NCBI RefSeq assembly: GCF_028368995.1
Contig: NZ_JAQNDL010000002.1
Location: 1,216,001-1,280,000, forward strand
Direction: 5' to 3'
Source: Nannocystis bainbridge
GTDB lineage: Bacteria > Myxococcota_A > Polyangia > Nannocystales > Nannocystaceae
Length of the DNA stretch: 64,000 nucleotides
Shown: positions 21,900 to 27,404 of the stretch, piece by piece
Layout of the letters: every line of letters begins with the position of its first letter
Position numbering within the stretch: position 1 is the stretch's first letter
The notes under the pieces: model-generated
What the model was told of the DNA's origin: nothing
Seen by the model: the letters and a program-made list of their open reading frames with translations, nothing else
Databases searched by the model: none
Position numbers and translations under genes: made by a program

Positions 21900-23788
<1,889 letters not shown>

Positions 23789-24040
23789 CACAGTCGCCTG
23801 GAAGTTCTCCGAGGGTTGGCGGGGGTGACCGCTGGTGCTCCGAGCCATACGGCGCCGGAGGCGACCCCTGGAGAACGTCGGGTTCGCTGTATCAGGCGGT
23901 CGGGTGACCCGCGAAATTCACGGCCGGCCCGGCGCGGGCAATGGTCGGGCAGCCCGGGGGTGCACGTCAACCCGGGCAGCGTCGACGGAAAGCGTCCTGG
24001 GGGACATCTGATTTCGAATCACGCGCGACGCTGTGCTGGA

Positions 24041-24130
24041 GGCATGTCGCGAAGACTCATGATGTCCTTCGGGACATGTCGTTAAAAAGTTTCTTCGGAC
24101 ATGTCCTCAAGGACATTTATGTTCATGTCG
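24041..24130. repeat. Cluster of 14-bp motif copies
   Basis: Perfect TGTCC-N4-GGACA at 24063-24076 and 24102-24115, with flanking CATG units; only partly in phase. Confidence 0.8.
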
Positions 24131-25004
24131 CGCGGGGCGGGCGAGTGATGACGAAGCGCGGGCAGGTGTCGGCGTCGTCCCTCAGCCAGCGCTGCGGGCC
24201 AGCGGCGGACTCGCGCAGGCGGTCGTCGGCGGCGCGCCACAGCTGATCGAGGTTGGCGGGCAACTGGCACGTCGCGGCGAACTGCGCCGGATCGGCGAGG
24301 TCGCGCCAGATCTGCTGGCAGTAGGCCAGCAGGTCGTTCTCGTAGAAGCGGAGCAGCGGGGCCGAGACGAGCGGCCCGCGGTGCCAGCGACGCAGGCCGT
24401 CGCCGAGGGCGCGGCCAAGCTCGAGCAGGAGCGGGCGCGGGACCCGGTGCGTGAGCAGCAGGTGCTTGCTCAGGTCGTGCTGGACGCCGAAGAAGTGGTA
24501 GTCGCGGCCGGCCCGCACGCGCCGCGGCTCGGGCAGGCGCAGGCGAGCGGCCGCGGCCAGGGCGGTGTAGTAGGTGCCGGCGCCGAGAGCGATCGGGACC
24601 TCGCCCCGCAGGTTGCCTTCGAGCCATGTCCGTTTGTTCATGGCCGAAGAGACAGCCTGATAGTAGCGCGGGCGCGGGCCGAGGTCGGGCACCCGCGCGA
24701 TCAGGCTGGCCGGGGCCGGGGCGCCGTCGACGAAGCCGCGCGCGTCCCAGGTGAAGCCGAGCCGCTGCAGCCAGGCGCGCACGGCCGGGTGACCGCCGAG
24801 GACGTCGACGCGCCCGACCACGGCGGCGTGGGCCCGGGTGTCGTGGGCGGGGAAGCGGAGCAGCAGGCCGTGGTCGTCACGCGCGAGCGCGGGCGCGACG
24901 CCGAAGCGGCGGCGGTAGGCGGCGATGAACGGGCGCAGCAAAGCGGCCTCGGCGTCGGGACCGGCCGGCTGGGGCAGCGGCGCGGTGGCGGCGTCGAGGA
25001 GCAT
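24123..25004 (-). CDS. Hypothetical protein downstream of the radical SAM gene
   Basis: ATG at 25004, 26 bp after the rSAM stop; 293 aa; contains HFFGVQHDLSKH and FYENDL; no family recognised. Confidence 0.7.
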   Translation of the reverse strand: MLLDAATAPLPQPAGPDAEAALLRPFIAAYRRRFGVAPALARDDHGLLLRFPAHDTRAHAAVVGRVDVLGGHPAVRAWLQRLGFTWDARGFVDGAPAPASLIARVPDLGPRPRYYQAVSSAMNKRTWLEGNLRGEVPIALGAGTYYTALAAAARLRLPEPRRVRAGRDYHFFGVQHDLSKHLLLTHRVPRPLLLELGRALGDGLRRWHRGPLVSAPLLRFYENDLLAYCQQIWRDLADPAQFAATCQLPANLDQLWRAADDRLRESAAGPQRWLRDDADTCPRFVITRPPRAT

Positions 25005-25030
25005 GCGCGGCGCTGGGCGGCGGGCGAGCG

Positions 25031-26083
25031 TCAGGGCACCGGGACGAATTCGTCCCAGCCGTAGCGGCGCAGGTAGTTGCCCCACACGCCCTCGCACACG
25101 GGCTCGTAGCGGCAAGCGGCGCACTCGGGCCGCTTGTGACGGGCGCTGTCGTCGAGGTCGGCGCGGCGCACGGCGACGAGCCCGCCGTCGGGCCCGGAGC
25201 GCCGCTCGGCCAGGCGATCGGCAGGGATGAGGTCGGTGTGCACGGCCACCGGCGGCTCGAAGTGGACGTAGTCCTCGACGTAGCCGCGGTTGTGATCGGG
25301 CAGCCGCGTGGTGGTGCACAGCGGGATGTCGACGAAGAACGCCTGGACCTGGCGCTCGCGCGCGGAGGCCTGCTGCAGGAACCCTTCGGCGGCCGCGGCG
25401 ATCTCGGTGTAGGTCGGGAACAGCTGGTCGAAGAAGGTGTTGGCGCGGCCGTTCGCCTGCATGACGTTGAACACGACCTGGTCGACCCCGCGCTCGCGCA
25501 GGAACACGTAGATCTCGTGGAGGTGCGGCAGGTTGCGCTTGGTGACGACGGTGCTGGTGTGCAGCGCGACGCCGAGCCGCTTGTAGCGGGCGATCGTGGC
25601 GATCCCGCCGACCGTCTGCTCGAAGCTGCCCGGGGTGCGGGTGAGGGCGTCGTGCAGCTTGGCGGTGTGGCCGTGGATGCTGACGTAGACCTTGTTGAGC
25701 CCGGCGGACAGCAAGAGGCGCGCGTAGCGGTCATAGCTGAGCGCGCGACCATTGGTCATCATGCTGATCTGGCGCGCACCTGCCTCTTTGGCCATCTTCA
25801 CCCAGACGGGCAGCCGCTGGTTGGTGGTCGGCTCGCCGGAGGTGAAGCACACCTCCTCGAAGGCGTCGTGCTGACCGAGGATCCAGCGCACGGTCTCGTC
25901 GGTGGTGGCGGAGTTGACGACGTAGCGGCCGTCGCGGTCCTCCTCCATGCAAAAGATGCAATTGTTGTTGCACACCGCGCCGGTCAGGATATGCACCCGC
26001 GGGGCCTTGCCGGCGATCCGCGCCTCGATCGCACCGCCAGCGGACGGGCGTTCACCAGGAGCCGTGGGAGCCGTGCGATCCAT
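25031..26083 (-). CDS. Radical SAM enzyme, His-Xaa-Ser system (HxsC-like) peptide maturase; start uncertain
   Basis: CNNNCIFC (CxxxCxxC), TSGEPT, MMTNGR, VSIHG..HDALTRTPGSF, DIPLC; C-terminal CAACRYEPVCEG auxiliary-cluster motif. Confidence 0.88.
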   Translation of the reverse strand: MDRTAPTAPGERPSAGGAIEARIAGKAPRVHILTGAVCNNNCIFCMEEDRDGRYVVNSATTDETVRWILGQHDAFEEVCFTSGEPTTNQRLPVWVKMAKEAGARQISMMTNGRALSYDRYARLLLSAGLNKVYVSIHGHTAKLHDALTRTPGSFEQTVGGIATIARYKRLGVALHTSTVVTKRNLPHLHEIYVFLRERGVDQVVFNVMQANGRANTFFDQLFPTYTEIAAAAEGFLQQASARERQVQAFFVDIPLCTTTRLPDHNRGYVEDYVHFEPPVAVHTDLIPADRLAERRSGPDGGLVAVRRADLDDSARHKRPECAACRYEPVCEGVWGNYLRRYGWDEFVPVP

Positions 26084-26315
26084 GCGAGCCGTGCGATCCA
26101 TGCGAGCCGTGCGAACCGTGCGAGCCGTGCGAACCGTGCGACGCGTGACCGGGGTCGCCGGGGGCGAAGGTGGCCGCGGCGACGAGGTCGCCGCTCGGCA
26201 CGCCCGTCTCGGCGTACTCCAGCGCCTTGTCCGAGATCTCACGGTGTTCGGGTCCAAGCACGGCGCTGGCCTTCTTGCGAAAGGAGACGAGCTCGTCAGG
26301 ATCAGAGGCGGCCAT
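26052..26315 (-). CDS. His-Xaa-Ser repeat precursor peptide (HxsA-like), 87 aa ending HAS(HGS)9W
   Basis: Ten 9-bp repeats (26058-26147) with synonymous variation that preserves His-x-Ser only in this frame; directly upstream of the rSAM gene. Confidence 0.88.
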   Translation of the reverse strand: MAASDPDELVSFRKKASAVLGPEHREISDKALEYAETGVPSGDLVAAATFAPGDPGHASHGSHGSHGSHGSHGSHGSHGSHGSHGSW

Positions 26316-26483
26316 GGCTGCACCATAGCCGAACCTCCGCGCGGCTCGCAGCACGAACCAGTGAGAACGCGCGGGGCCGGTGCGAAGCGGCGGTAGCACC
26401 GACCGAACGGCTCCAGAAGCGGCTTTGCCGACAACTTGACACCGCACGGGCCCCGCCCGTAGCGTCCCAGAAAGGCTCTACGC

Positions 26484-27404
26484 ATGCAGATTCGGGTACT
26501 TTCTCTCGCGCTCCTGGTCGCCGCGGGCTCGACGTCCGGCTGCAGCGACGACTTCGAGCTGCCCAACAGCTCCGGCGTACCGACGGCGCCCGACGGCGCG
26601 ACGACCACGACGACGGGCGAGACGCCGACGACCTCGACGCAGGGGACGACCGCCGTGGACACGACCACCACGGGCGATCCGACCGGCGAGCCGACCAGCT
26701 CGACCACCGACCCGACGGCGGGCGGCATGTGCAACATCTACGACCAGGACTGCTCCGGCGACGAGAAGTGCACCGCGTACGCGAGCCCCAACACGTTCAT
26801 CCCCGAGGGCATCAAGTGCGTGCCGGTGCCCGACAACCCGAAGGCCGCCAATGAGCCGTGCAACGTCGGTCCCGAGGGCCTCGGCGACGACAACTGCGAG
26901 CTCGGCACGGTCTGCCTCGACCTCGACTTCAACGGCTCGGGCTTCTGCCTGCCGTACTGCACCGGCGACTCGCAGAACCCGGTCTGCGAGGGCAGCGACA
27001 CCACCTGCGTTAAGCTGTTCTTCGGCTACGACTTCGGCAACTGCTTCAAGCAGTGCGACCCGCTGCTGCAGGACTGCGCCGAGGGCGAGGGCTGCTACAT
27101 GGACGCGATCAAGGTCGGCAACACGGGCTTCGTGTGCCTGCCGGTCGTGCAGGGCGGGGCCGAAGCGACCTTCCAGGACACGTGCATCGGCTGGTCGTCG
27201 TGCGCGCCCGGGTTCGCCTGTGTGTTCGACGCGCTGGTGCCCGAGTGCTCGTTCTCATACTGCTGCTCGCCGTGGTGCGACGTGTCCGAGGGCGACGACG
27301 CATGTCAGGCGCTCGACGAGAAGATGTCGTGCATCGCCTGGTACAGCGAGGGACAGGCGCCGCCGGGGTTCGAGAACGTCGGGGTCTGCGGGATCCCCGA
27401 GTAG
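26484..27404 (+). CDS. Cys-rich lipoprotein with Thr-rich linker
   Basis: Lipobox TSGC; repeated C-[ND]-x3-QDC-x2-[GD]E-x-C modules; about 20 Cys. Confidence 0.85.
   Translation: MQIRVLSLALLVAAGSTSGCSDDFELPNSSGVPTAPDGATTTTTGETPTTSTQGTTAVDTTTTGDPTGEPTSSTTDPTAGGMCNIYDQDCSGDEKCTAYASPNTFIPEGIKCVPVPDNPKAANEPCNVGPEGLGDDNCELGTVCLDLDFNGSGFCLPYCTGDSQNPVCEGSDTTCVKLFFGYDFGNCFKQCDPLLQDCAEGEGCYMDAIKVGNTGFVCLPVVQGGAEATFQDTCIGWSSCAPGFACVFDALVPECSFSYCCSPWCDVSEGDDACQALDEKMSCIAWYSEGQAPPGFENVGVCGIPE

What the first reader, a model, noticed from the sequence alone, without database searches (positions are those of the whole stretch)
24123..26315. Compact His-Xaa-Ser precursor / radical SAM / unknown protein operon (candidate RiPP or metallopeptide system)
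Seen: an 87-aa peptide with a 56-aa leader-like part and a HAS(HGS)9-Trp tail, whose repeats vary only synonymously after the first unit. It is followed by a radical SAM enzyme (CNNNCIFC; C-terminal CxxC-x5-C) and a 293-aa protein of no recognisable family with a HFFGVQHDLSKH motif. Established: His-Xaa-Ser repeat peptides with radical SAM partners (HxsA/B/C/D families) are bioinformatically defined, and some peptide-modifying rSAMs crosslink aromatic-Xaa-Xaa triplets. Inference: this is a variant with one rSAM, an unusually long run of 10 triplets, a terminal Trp and a different third gene (protease or tailoring enzyme?). The product could be a poly-crosslinked or metal-chelating peptide. No transporter or protease is recognisable nearby.
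Basis: partly seen in the sequence, partly recalled or inferred. Interest (0 to 1): 0.78.

Follow-up and report, generated by a model that had tools for sequence, protein, structure and literature searches.

The report
Split type-4 His-Xaa-Ser peptide system
This is a real small gene for a histidine-glycine-serine repeat peptide next to its radical-SAM modifying enzyme, a catalogued but unstudied relative of a recently described anti-phage system, whose other helper genes lie far away in the same genome.

Summary
On the minus strand lie an 87-aa peptide (56-aa leader, HAS(HGS)9W), a 350-aa radical SAM enzyme and a 293-aa protein with no family.

It is not a new kind of system. The peptide scores as HxsA4 and the enzyme as HxsC4, both above NCBIfam's curated cut-offs. 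This scan has met HxsA4 before on other DNA.

The "one-rSAM variant" reading is wrong. In 7 of 16 related genomes with HxsC4, HxsB lies within about 1.3 kb of HxsA4-HxsC4; in the one locus scanned (G009) the order is HxsD-HxsB-HxsA4-HxsC4. Here, and in the closest sister species, the orthologous HxsD-HxsD_rel-HxsB trio sits about 362 kb away. The cassette is therefore split, not reduced.

The third gene is not a core part. It is adjacent only within this genus (closest named relatives: Nannocystis). It belongs to an unannotated family of at least 148 clusters, one member of which is fused to an HxsC-like rSAM domain. It has a confident model with no clear known fold and a conserved His/Asp/Glu cluster.

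The peptide core, H[ACG]S(HGS)nW with n = 8-19, does not vary across the families of Myxococcota sampled, and dN/dS is about 0.02. The chemistry and the biological role remain untested. The canonical HXS system blocks phage DNA entry, but this peptide lacks that effector's export and wall-binding features.

The parts
26052..26315 (-). hxsA4: 87-aa His-Xaa-Ser repeat precursor (stop codon included)
   Evidence: Translation. NF038313 HxsA4 scores 82.6 bits against a cut-off of 55. dN/dS is 0.017-0.030 against 5 sister species. It lies upstream of HxsC4 in 16 of 16 loci of the family.
26148..26315 (-). Leader, residues 1-56: acidic, no hydrophobic signal-like stretch, with a conserved L-P-x-F ... 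(Q/E)-R-E-I-S ... A ... A-(D/E) pattern
   Evidence: Alignment of 15 HxsA4 copies from several families of Myxococcota. Invariant: M1, L9, L20, A31. Nearly invariant: P10, E26, A35. The absence of a signal peptide is read directly from the sequence.
26055..26147 (-). Core: HAS + 9 x HGS + terminal Trp, encoded by a 9-bp repeat with synonymous variation
   Evidence: Every core column is invariant in the 15 aligned copies, apart from the number of units and the middle residue of the first unit.
25031..26083 (-). hxsC4: 350-aa radical SAM enzyme (alternative ATG at 26101). Its start lies inside the HGS repeat of hxsA4.
   Evidence: NF038332 scores 609.5 bits against a cut-off of 500; canonical HxsC TIGR03977 scores only 94.5 against 267.9. 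Pfam Radical_SAM, 67.6 bits. C38/C42/C45 plus C79, C256 and C321/C324/C330 are invariant in 22 of 22 orthologues, and 114 residues are invariant overall.
24123..25004 (-). ORF3: 293-aa protein of an unannotated family, 26 nt downstream of hxsC4 on the same strand; a genus-level accessory gene
   Evidence: No Pfam, NCBIfam or PADLOC hit. Adjacent to HxsC4 only in same-genus loci: 7 of 16 loci. AlphaFold2 model with pLDDT 87.7 and pTM 0.86. No PDB match at Foldseek E<=0.001. H170, H176, D177, H181, H186, E222 and D224 are invariant in 18 sequences. The profile search finds 148 representative clusters. dN/dS is 0.24-0.35.
24072..24116 (.). Two copies of the dispersed GGACATGTC(C) palindromic motif and a hairpin just beyond the ORF3 stop; possibly the end of the transcription unit
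   Evidence: This is the only terminator-like site in 23700..26700, called on the + strand. The motif occurs 23 times in the window against 0.42 expected. Any function is inferred.

Best explanation
The locus is half of a type-4 His-Xaa-Ser (Hxs) peptide-maturation cassette.

hxsA4 is translated into an 87-aa precursor. Its 56-aa leader recruits the maturases. Its core of ten H-x-S triplets plus a C-terminal Trp is the substrate.

The adjacent HxsC4 is a radical SAM enzyme with the canonical CxxxCxxC cluster and four further invariant Cys that could hold one auxiliary cluster. It acts together with the SPASM-type radical SAM enzyme HxsB and the small proteins HxsD and HxsD_rel. In this genome those three are encoded as an orphan trio about 362 kb away (G000:C3:1603685-1605776) and so must work in trans.

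Inferred chemistry: radical H-abstraction at each triplet gives a repeated covalent change. The most likely form is a three-residue His-to-Ser C-C crosslink of the kind HaaB, HtkB and YhhB make on H-x-x motifs. A second modification by the other rSAM may follow, as the canonical system installs +8 Da on an SHRSS motif.

The product would be a rigid, poly-imidazole peptide. Because the parts are dispersed, appear vertically inherited and sit among housekeeping genes, I think a cell-physiological role such as metal binding is somewhat more likely than phage defence. ORF3 is a lineage-specific accessory, probably a metal-dependent tailoring enzyme.

Shown here: gene identities, orthology, selection and co-occurrence. 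Inferred: trans action, chemistry, role and ORF3 function.
For: Identity: HxsA4 and HxsC4 score above curated cut-offs.

Ancestral cassette: in G009 the order is HxsD (63.9 bits), HxsB (552.8 bits), HxsA4, HxsC4, ORF3. HxsB lies within about 1.3 kb of HxsC4 in 7 of 16 HxsC4-bearing relatives.

Split: the genome holds HxsD (55.3 bits), HxsD_rel (75.5 bits, the only copy) and HxsB (573.8 bits) at C3:1603685-1605776. The 14 kb fetched around them hold no H-x-S repeat peptide, and no HxsC- or HxsC4-like match lies beside them. That HxsB is 76-77% identical to the HxsA4-linked HxsB of G009 and G002, but only 38% identical to the genome's own canonical HxsB. The same separation, 343-397 kb, is seen in G001, G005 and G007.

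Co-occurrence: 22 of 23 genomes with HxsC4 over the cut-off, and 51 of 52 with an HxsC4-like match at E<=1e-80, also have HxsA4. Among the remaining sampled Myxococcota the figure is 83 of 349 (cross-tabulated by eye).

Selection: dN/dS is about 0.02 for the peptide and about 0.1 for the enzyme. The core is invariant across families.

Precedents: HxsC binds HxsD, and rSAM-dependent maturation gives +8 Da on SHRSS (PMC13128918, section 9). His-C2 to X3-C-beta cyclophanes are made by HaaB, HtkB and YhhB (PMC11499958, passages read).

ORF3 link to rSAM enzymes: one family member, P0053, is fused to an HxsC/HxsC4-like rSAM domain. The ORF3-like gene of G416 lies in a 1011-aa open frame next to rSAM similarity. 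9 of 10 ORF3-family genomes in the phylum sample also have HxsA4.

Weak expression hint: contigs of three RNA libraries from two studies match parts of hxsC4 (25517..25998, 178-298 nt, 4-12 mismatches) and the repeat.
Against: Nothing here shows any modification, trans action or product.

The canonical system's only measured change is a single +8 Da at one motif, not -2 Da per triplet (PMC13128918).

Neither HxsC4 nor the orphan HxsB reaches the cut-off of any cyclophane-synthase model. For HxsB: YhhB 47.3 against 445, AmcB 56.2 against 425.

Co-occurrence counts are inflated by shared ancestry. HxsA4 also occurs in 83 sampled genomes without an HxsC4-like gene, so the peptide does not need HxsC4.

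The RNA-library contigs are 90-99% alike, come from relatives, may contain DNA, and the short repeat contigs could come from any HGS gene.

ORF3 is missing beside HxsC4 in 7 of 7 assessable loci of other lineages, and in the phylum sample it is never next to HxsA4 outside this genus.

The argument for a physiological role over defence rests only on gene context.
Confidence: 0.7

Rival explanations
1. It has the same biological role as canonical HXS. Matured HxsA4 is an envelope-located anti-phage effector that blocks entry of phage DNA, and this is simply the myxobacterial form of that defence.
For: The maturases are homologues of HxsB, HxsC and HxsD, which are required for HXS defence in E. 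coli (PMC13128918; abstract and sections 9-11). The His-rich repeats were proposed there to engage DNA. The repeat number varies between lineages, n = 8-19, as might be expected under an arms race. Presence is patchy at phylum level: HxsC4 over the cut-off in 23 of 401 genomes.
Against: HxsA4 has no signal-like N-terminus and no Pfam domain other than a spurious collagen-repeat hit. Its leader is acidic and its repeats contain no Arg or Lys. The genome's own canonical HxsA-like protein, by contrast, has a signal-like start and HRS/HSS repeats. The canonical models fail: HxsA 9.6 bits against 121.65, HxsC 94.5 against 267.9. There is no PADLOC hit beyond generic rSAM similarity to viperins. The parts are scattered and sit among hflX-, thrC- and dnaE2-like genes, not in a defence island. 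Identity falls steadily with taxonomic distance (96% down to 55%), as vertical descent predicts.
Confidence: 0.2
2. One reading: a self-contained three-gene RiPP operon (precursor, single rSAM, ORF3 as protease or tailoring enzyme) that needs nothing else.
For: The three genes are co-directional with a 26-nt gap or an overlap. No terminator-like site lies between them. The arrangement is conserved in 6 sister species and in G009. An ORF3-family member is fused to an HxsC-like rSAM.
Against: Every one of the 16 related genomes with HxsC4 also keeps the HxsA4-type HxsB orthologue at 66-97% identity. Two of those 16 matches are partial: G016 covers query residues 224-499, and G006, which has no HxsC4, gave only a fragment. 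HxsB is adjacent in 7 of the 16. The orphan trio here has no substrate gene of its own within 14 kb. ORF3 is missing from the cassette in all other genera examined.
Confidence: 0.08
3. It is a decaying remnant: after the cassette split, hxsA4-hxsC4 no longer work.
For: They are physically separated from hxsB and hxsD. No promoter-like site was found, but that scan does not cover myxobacterial promoters.
Against: All three frames are intact. dN/dS is 0.02-0.35. All 8 Cys of HxsC4 are kept. The split arrangement is itself conserved in at least 4 species. The separated HxsB is 94-97% identical among those species.
Confidence: 0.02

Closest known systems
NCBIfam type-4 His-Xaa-Ser cassette: HxsA4 (NF038313), HxsC4 (NF038332), HxsD_rel (NF038315), with HxsB (TIGR03978) and HxsD (TIGR03976)
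   Same: All five models are met above their cut-offs in this genome. The precursor architecture (leader, HxS repeats, terminal W) and the order A4-C4 match relatives.
   Different: The cassette is split into two loci about 362 kb apart. A genus-specific ORF3 is appended. These models are only bioinformatic definitions: no paper in the searched library mentions HxsA4 or HxsC4.
Canonical HXS anti-phage system HxsD-HxsB-HxsC-HxsA of E. coli (PMC13128918, Nat Commun 2026)
   Same: Two radical SAM enzymes plus a small HxsD protein mature a His-Xaa-Ser repeat protein. HxsB and HxsD fall in the same NCBIfam families.
   Different: [quoted passage not shown] Here it is an 87-aa peptide with ten uniform HGS units, no such domain and no basic residues in the repeats. 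HxsC4 is only distantly related to HxsC (94.5 bits against 267.9). The gene order differs. This genome also carries a separate canonical D-B-C-A locus.
Triceptide (three-residue cyclophane) radical SAM/SPASM maturases acting on His motifs: HaaB (HAA), HtkB (HTK), YhhB (HNR) (PMC11499958; abstract and passages read)
   Same: The substrate logic is the same: repeated aromatic-X-X triplets that begin with His, following a leader.
   Different: Those enzymes are single SPASM maturases. Neither HxsC4 nor HxsB reaches their model cut-offs. A Ser at position 3 and two cooperating rSAMs are not described for them. No crosslink has been shown for any Hxs peptide.
Peptide-derived cofactor pathways with an rSAM/SPASM enzyme and a small chaperone (PqqA/PqqE/PqqD, MftA/MftC/MftB); recalled from general knowledge, not tested here
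   Same: A small precursor, an rSAM-SPASM enzyme, a small partner protein, stable chromosomal inheritance, and genes that can be dispersed.
   Different: PqqE and mycofactocin models score far below their cut-offs on HxsC4: 37.2 against 381, and 44.2 against 265. Those precursors carry one reactive pair, not 10-20 repeats.
Aromatic amino-acid hydroxylases (Biopterin_H, PF00351), for ORF3 only
   Same: They are the only whole-length structural matches to the ORF3 model: C. violaceum PAH 4q3z at Z 5.0, rmsd 5.4, 175 residues aligned, 17% identity; also 5jk5, 7vgm, 2v27 and 4bpt at Z 3.4-4.5. The invariant H181-x4-H186 ... E222 resembles the H-x4-H ... E pattern seen in PAH sequences of relatives, HELVGH ... 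LEFG.
   Different: There is no Pfam hit. Profile-profile probability is 0.4-0.5%. The Z values are in the range the tool calls common by chance. Whether the residues are equivalent could not be checked.

Membership tests
HxsA4 (NCBIfam NF038313) | Score at or above the curated cut-off (55 bits) | tested here: met
   82.6 bits, E 2.8e-23, residues 9-87 on model positions 2-93 of 93.
HxsA4 (NCBIfam NF038313) | C-terminal run of His-Xaa-Ser triplets after a leader | tested here: met
   HAS(HGS)9W after a 56-aa leader.
HxsA4 (NCBIfam NF038313) | Occurs with Hxs maturases | tested here: met
   HxsC4 is adjacent. HxsD, HxsD_rel and HxsB are in the same genome. 22 of 23 HxsC4 genomes in the phylum sample have HxsA4.
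HxsC4 (NCBIfam NF038332) | Score at or above the curated cut-off (500 bits) | tested here: met
   609.5 bits, model positions 4-335 of 335.
HxsC4 (NCBIfam NF038332) | Radical SAM CxxxCxxC cluster motif | tested here: met
   C38-N-N-N-C42-I-F-C45, invariant in 28 of 28 aligned sequences. Pfam Radical_SAM 67.6 bits.
Complete type-4 Hxs cassette | HxsB, HxsD and HxsD_rel encoded next to HxsA4-HxsC4 | tested here: not met
   They lie about 362 kb away on the same contig. HxsB is adjacent in 7 of 16 relatives. All parts are present in the genome.
Canonical HXS anti-phage system (PMC13128918) | HxsC equivalog (TIGR03977, cut-off 267.9) and HxsA equivalog (TIGR03979, cut-off 121.65) | tested here: not met
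   94.5 bits and 9.6 bits respectively.
Canonical HXS anti-phage system (PMC13128918) | Effector with a peptidoglycan-binding domain, N-terminal processing and export | tested here: not met
   No domain hit beyond a below-threshold collagen-repeat match. No hydrophobic N-terminal stretch, read. Processing itself cannot be tested here.
Canonical HXS anti-phage system (PMC13128918) | Protects against phage by blocking DNA entry | not testable with these tools
   Needs phage challenge assays.
Triceptide cyclophane synthases (YhhB NF041707, XyeB TIGR04496, AmcB NF041718, GrrM/OscB TIGR04261) | Maturase above a family cut-off | tested here: not met
   HxsC4: none of these is among its 25 best families. 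Orphan HxsB: YhhB 47.3 against 445, AmcB 56.2 against 425, GrrM/OscB 45.8 against 310.
Triceptide cyclophane synthases | Aromatic-X-X crosslink in the product | not testable with these tools
   Needs mass spectrometry and NMR of the modified peptide.
Aromatic amino-acid hydroxylase fold (PF00351), for ORF3 | Sequence-profile membership | tested here: not met
   No Pfam hit at E<=1. PF00351 finds nothing in the own genome. hhalign probability 0.4% and 0.5%.
Aromatic amino-acid hydroxylase fold (PF00351), for ORF3 | Shared fold and an equivalent 2-His-1-Glu iron site | tested here: inconclusive
   The best whole-length matches are PAH chains, but at Z 3.4-5.0 and rmsd 4.7-6.3. No residue-level superposition was available.

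The most novel reading that the evidence does not exclude
Type-4 Hxs in Myxococcota may not be a phage-defence island. It may instead be a dispersed, vertically inherited pathway that turns an invariant (HGS)n-Trp peptide into a poly-crosslinked imidazole product, such as a metal-binding peptide or a cofactor precursor. On this reading the ORF3 family is a previously unrecognised non-haem-iron, PAH-like tailoring enzyme with a 2-His-1-carboxylate site. It would work with HxsC-type radical SAM enzymes, sometimes fused to them, for example by oxidising the conserved terminal Trp or a His.
Probability: 0.12. Interest if true: 0.7.

Novelty: new member of a known kind. Interest (0 to 1): 0.38.

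Why it matters
The canonical HXS system has only just been shown to be an anti-phage system, and the radical chemistry of its maturation is still unsolved. Its authors could not reconstitute it, partly because HxsA is insoluble (PMC13128918, Discussion).

Type-4 precursors such as this one are short and uniform: ten identical triplets. They are under very strong selection and could be a much easier substrate for working out what HxsB and HxsC-type enzymes do to His-x-Ser.

This genome also shows that the cassette can work, or at least persist under selection, when split across about 362 kb. That matters for genome mining, because neighbourhood-based RiPP and defence finders would call this locus a "one-rSAM" system and the distant trio an orphan.

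ORF3 adds an unannotated family of at least 148 clusters, with a conserved His/Asp/Glu cluster and an occasional fusion to rSAM domains.

None of this changes the classification. It is a catalogued family that this scan has met several times.

Tried and rejected
- **ORF3 binding to HxsA4.** Complex prediction on ORF3 (alignment A1) with HxsA4 (alignment A3) scored 0.01 against a mark of 0.32. No verdict, and the controls were not run. This says nothing either way.
- **ORF3 by language-model features.** The nearest clusters were APH/phosphotransferase-like at 0.92, but with only 114-138 shared features, which is in the range of chance hits. Dropped.
- **ORF3 against the PDB by sequence.** Profiles A1 and A4 gave only E 0.39-1.1 noise.
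- **ORF3 against the PDB by fold.** Foldseek gave 0 of 291 listed matches at E<=0.001. VIA-align over 48,161 chains gave one chain at Z>=5, and generic helical bundles dominated residues 187-277. The N-terminal half was not folded and searched alone, so I do not claim a new fold.
- **ORF3 as a PAH relative by sequence.** hhalign probability was 0.4% and 0.5%. Kept only as a lead.
- **PADLOC.** There is nothing for HxsA4 or ORF3. HxsC4 hits viperin models at 18-42 bits, which is generic rSAM similarity.
- **The search for related loci with alignment A4.** This failed because the alignment has no conserved 7-10 column stretch. I used the genome search with the same alignment instead.
- **Context of ORF3-family genes in 9 other Myxococcota loci.** rSAM similarity lay within the fetched flanks in 2 of them (G416, G336) and in none of the other 7. 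None was next to an HxS peptide.
- **Promoter scan.** No sigma-70-like site in 23700..26700. This is uninformative for this organism.
- **RNA evidence.** Only contigs from relatives in three RNA libraries were found. Parts of the stretch without cover mean nothing.
- **Earlier notes on this genome.** There were none.
- **Supplementary files.** Those of PMC13128918 could not be read. They may hold the list of variant HXS gene orders (its Fig. 5d) and so might mention type-4-like arrangements.


Full report
**1. What is there**

All three genes lie on the minus strand.
- 26052..26315 encodes an 87-aa peptide, MAASDPDELVSF...GDPG-HAS-(HGS)9-W.
- 25031..26083 encodes a 350-aa radical SAM protein with CNNNCIFC and a C-terminal C-x2-C-x5-C.
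- 24123..25004, starting 26 nt further on, encodes a 293-aa protein containing HFFGVQHDLSKH.

The repeat has a 9-bp period with 9.2 copies and 83% matches. Its nine HGS units differ only by synonymous codons.

The rSAM frame has no ATG, GTG or TTG between the peptide's stop codon and the cluster motif. Its start must therefore be one of two ATGs created by CAT-GGA (His-Gly) codon pairs inside the repeat, which gives an overlap of 32 or 50 nt.

The eight flanking ORFs scanned are:
- an HflX-type GTPase;
- a YbjQ-family protein;
- a PLP-dependent ThrC-like enzyme;
- an OmpA-family protein;
- a DnaE2-like polymerase;
- three ORFs with no Pfam hit.

None is a transporter, protease, mobile-element gene or defence gene.

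**2. Identity**

NCBIfam names the peptide HxsA4 (NF038313, 82.6 bits, cut-off 55) and the enzyme HxsC4 (NF038332, 609.5 bits, cut-off 500). The canonical models fail: HxsC scores 94.5 against 267.9, and HxsA scores 9.6 against 121.65. Pfam sees only Radical_SAM. ORF3 has no hit in NCBIfam, Pfam or PADLOC.

The pair is therefore a member of a curated family, so far defined only by bioinformatics. No paper in the searched library contains "HxsA4" or "HxsC4". This scan's notebook lists several earlier HxsA4 findings on other DNA.

**3. Relatives and selection**

The closest named homologues of ORF3 are Nannocystis proteins.

Among the own genome and 40 relatives, HxsC4 is over the cut-off in 15 of 41. 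A sixteenth copy is cut by a contig end at 489.9 bits. An HxsA4 gene lies directly upstream in all 16 loci.

Every copy read has the core H[A/C/G]S(HGS)nW with n = 8-19. This includes copies from other families of the phylum. In a 15-sequence alignment all core columns are invariant except the copy number and the middle residue of the first unit. The leader keeps an L-P-x-F ... REIS ... A ... A-D/E pattern.

dN/dS against sister species:
- peptide: 0.017-0.030;
- HxsC4: 0.086-0.152 (four species; the G003 row was dropped as out of register);
- ORF3: 0.24-0.35.

All 8 Cys of HxsC4 and 114 of its residues are invariant in 22 orthologues. Four of those Cys (C256, C321, C324, C330) could hold an auxiliary cluster. 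That is an inference.

**4. The missing partners**

In G009, a diverged member of the genus, the order is HxsD (TIGR03976, 63.9 bits), HxsB (TIGR03978, 552.8 bits), HxsA4, HxsC4, ORF3.

An HxsB gene lies within about 1.3 kb of HxsC4 in 7 of the 16 genomes: G002, G009, G011, G013 (divergent orientation), G018, G019 and G023.

The window's genome has two HxsD/HxsB pairs.
- The pair on contig C2 is followed by a true HxsC (390.2 bits) and a 217-aa protein with a signal-like start and HRS/HSS repeats. That is a canonical D-B-C-A system.
- The other, at C3:1603685-1605776, is HxsD, then HxsD_rel (NF038315, 75.5 bits, the only copy in the genome), then HxsB (573.8 bits). The 14 kb fetched around it hold no HxS peptide, and no HxsC-like gene lies beside it.

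The C3 HxsB is 76-77% identical to the HxsA4-linked HxsB of G009 and G002, and 66-73% identical to those of other genera. It is only 38% identical to the genome's own canonical HxsB. It is therefore the orthologue of the cassette's HxsB, now about 362 kb from hxsC4.

The same split is seen in G001 (397 kb), G005 (354 kb) and G007 (343 kb). In G003, G010, G004, G008 and G016 the two halves are on different contigs.

So "one rSAM" is an artefact of looking at a single locus.

**5. Wider distribution**

In an even sample of 401 genomes of the phylum:
- HxsC4 is over the cut-off in 23, and an HxsC4-like protein (E<=1e-80) is in 52.
- HxsA4 is at E<=1e-8 in 134, and over the cut-off in 125.

Reading the two tables together, 22 of 23 and 51 of 52 of the HxsC4 genomes have HxsA4, against 83 of the other 349. 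The single miss, G405, is 77% complete. These genomes are kin, so the contrast is descriptive only.

Linkage is often lost. Of 14 distant loci with HxsC4 over the cut-off:
- 2 have D-B-A4-C4;
- 1 has HxsA4 about 5 kb away;
- 11 have none within the flanks fetched, and one of those has only about 200 nt upstream.

Yet 5 of 5 such genomes checked carry HxsA4 elsewhere, from 8 kb to 2 Mb away or on another contig.

HxsC4 identity to the window's copy falls with taxonomic distance:
- about 96% in the closest species;
- 72-81% in more distant members of the genus;
- 64-76% in other genera of the family;
- 59-68% in other families of the class;
- 55-61% in other classes.

This pattern fits vertical descent. 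It was not tested with a tree.

**6. ORF3**

ORF3 is adjacent to HxsC4 only in the genus: 7 of 16 loci. Two more loci end at a contig edge. In 7 assessable loci a different gene follows: a roughly 500-aa protein ending KERGQ...FETKMRI in three, an ATPase-like protein, a kinase-like protein, and others.

A word-based search found 16 proteins. A profile search of 1.84 billion representatives found 148 at E<=0.001 and 125 at E<=1e-10. Many of these carry an extra 120-250 aa at the N-terminus.

I aligned 102 sequences: ORF3 itself and 101 of the 148 hits. I left out fragments, several weak hits and a few longer ones such as P0141. Of these 102, 100 have no Pfam domain, one is fused to Radical_SAM and one to hemerythrin.
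- The rSAM fusion, P0053, has the ORF3-like part at residues 10-266. Its rSAM domain has HxsC4 and HxsC as best NCBIfam hits, at 56.9 and 56.5 bits.
- G416 has an ORF3-like stretch in a 1011-aa open frame beside rSAM similarity.

In the phylum sample the family occurs in 10 of 401 genomes. Nine of those have HxsA4 and four have HxsC4. Outside this genus it is never next to HxsA4.

The AlphaFold2 model is confident (pLDDT 87.7, pTM 0.86): an alpha/beta N-terminal half and a helical C-terminal half.

H170, H176, D177, H181, H186, E222 and D224 are invariant in 18 sequences. H176, D177 and H181 are kept in 90% or more of the 102.

No solved structure matches clearly. The only whole-length matches are phenylalanine hydroxylases at Z 3.4-5.0. 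H181-x4-H186 ... E222 recalls their H-x4-H ... E pattern. However, profile-profile comparison gives 0.4-0.5% probability, so this stays a lead.

**7. How it most likely works**

Shown by the calls above: what the genes are, that they are under selection, and which genes travel together.

Inferred:
- The leader docks the precursor on the maturases.
- HxsC4, HxsB, HxsD and HxsD_rel act together although they are encoded apart. In the canonical system HxsC pulls down HxsD, and both rSAM active sites are needed (PMC13128918, section 9).
- Each HGS unit is modified.

The nearest chemical precedents are the His-C2 to X3-C-beta cyclophanes of HaaB, HtkB and YhhB (PMC11499958) and the unexplained +8 Da on SHRSS in HxsA (PMC13128918).

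As to role, HxsA4 lacks the signal-like start, the basic repeats and the wall-binding domain of the canonical effector. Its genes are scattered among housekeeping genes. I therefore put phage defence at about 0.2 and favour a physiological product such as a metal-binding peptide, without direct evidence.

Contigs from three RNA libraries of two studies match parts of hxsC4 and the repeat at 90-99% identity. That is at most a weak hint that relatives transcribe the locus.

**8. Verdict**

This is a new member of a known, uncharacterised family, with two local twists: a split cassette and an added gene from an unannotated family. Interest is moderate. Its main value is as a tractable substrate for solving Hxs chemistry, and as a warning for neighbourhood-based genome mining.

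Noticed in passing
G000:C2:1612786-1616448 (locus L062 4786..8448), outside the window: The genome also has a complete canonical HxsD-HxsB-HxsC cassette (56.3, 607.8 and 390.2 bits). It is followed by a 217-aa protein with a signal-like N-terminus, HRS/HSS repeats, a Gly/Ser-rich linker and a C-terminal domain. That protein gets no NCBIfam hit at E<=1e-6. It is probably a divergent HxsA effector.
   Followed up: partly
window 24072..24106 and 21 other sites (e.g. 4885, 17210, 18152, 21913, 29017, 36313, 60699): The palindromic motif GGACATGTC(C) occurs 23 times in the window against 0.42 expected. Several of the sites checked, for example those just beyond the ORF3 stop, lie in intergenic gaps. 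It may be a dispersed REP-like element or a terminator/operator motif.
   Followed up: partly
window 26083..26103: Both candidate start codons of hxsC4 are created by CAT-GGA (His-Gly) codon pairs inside the hxsA4 repeat, so the enzyme's translation start is embedded in its substrate's core-coding region. In G009 the two genes do not overlap.
   Followed up: partly
Relatives: G023:C28:9809-28005, G019:C12:870698-888037, G013:C23:191347-208829, G018:C1135:1671-8716; own genome C3:1183924-1188187 and C3:333066-337615: In other genera the type-4 cassette sits in neighbourhoods with 3-7 further radical SAM genes, many in open frames of 600-900 aa. The own genome has similar rSAM pairs about 55 kb upstream of the window's operon, outside the window, and elsewhere.
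   Followed up: no
G035 (another family of the class): C114:6787-7698, C451:4959-5870, C410:10310-11218: This genome has three HxsC4-like paralogues at 311-322 bits (about 42% identity) and four HxsB-like genes at 47-50% identity. In the phylum sample, 29 genomes carry HxsC4-like proteins that match at E<=1e-80 but fall below the HxsC4 cut-off, all together with HxsA4. NCBIfam does not seem to name this clade.
   Followed up: no
P0105 (database protein, 478 aa): An ORF3-family domain is fused to a bacteriohemerythrin domain (97.2 bits), an iron- and O2-binding module. This fits, loosely, a metal- or oxygen-dependent role for the family.
   Followed up: no
G021:C116:13-1029 (locus L036): The most distant ORF3 homologue among the 40 relatives (30% identity) sits at a contig start, in a genome that has an HxsA4-type HxsB but no HxsC4 over the cut-off.
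   Followed up: no
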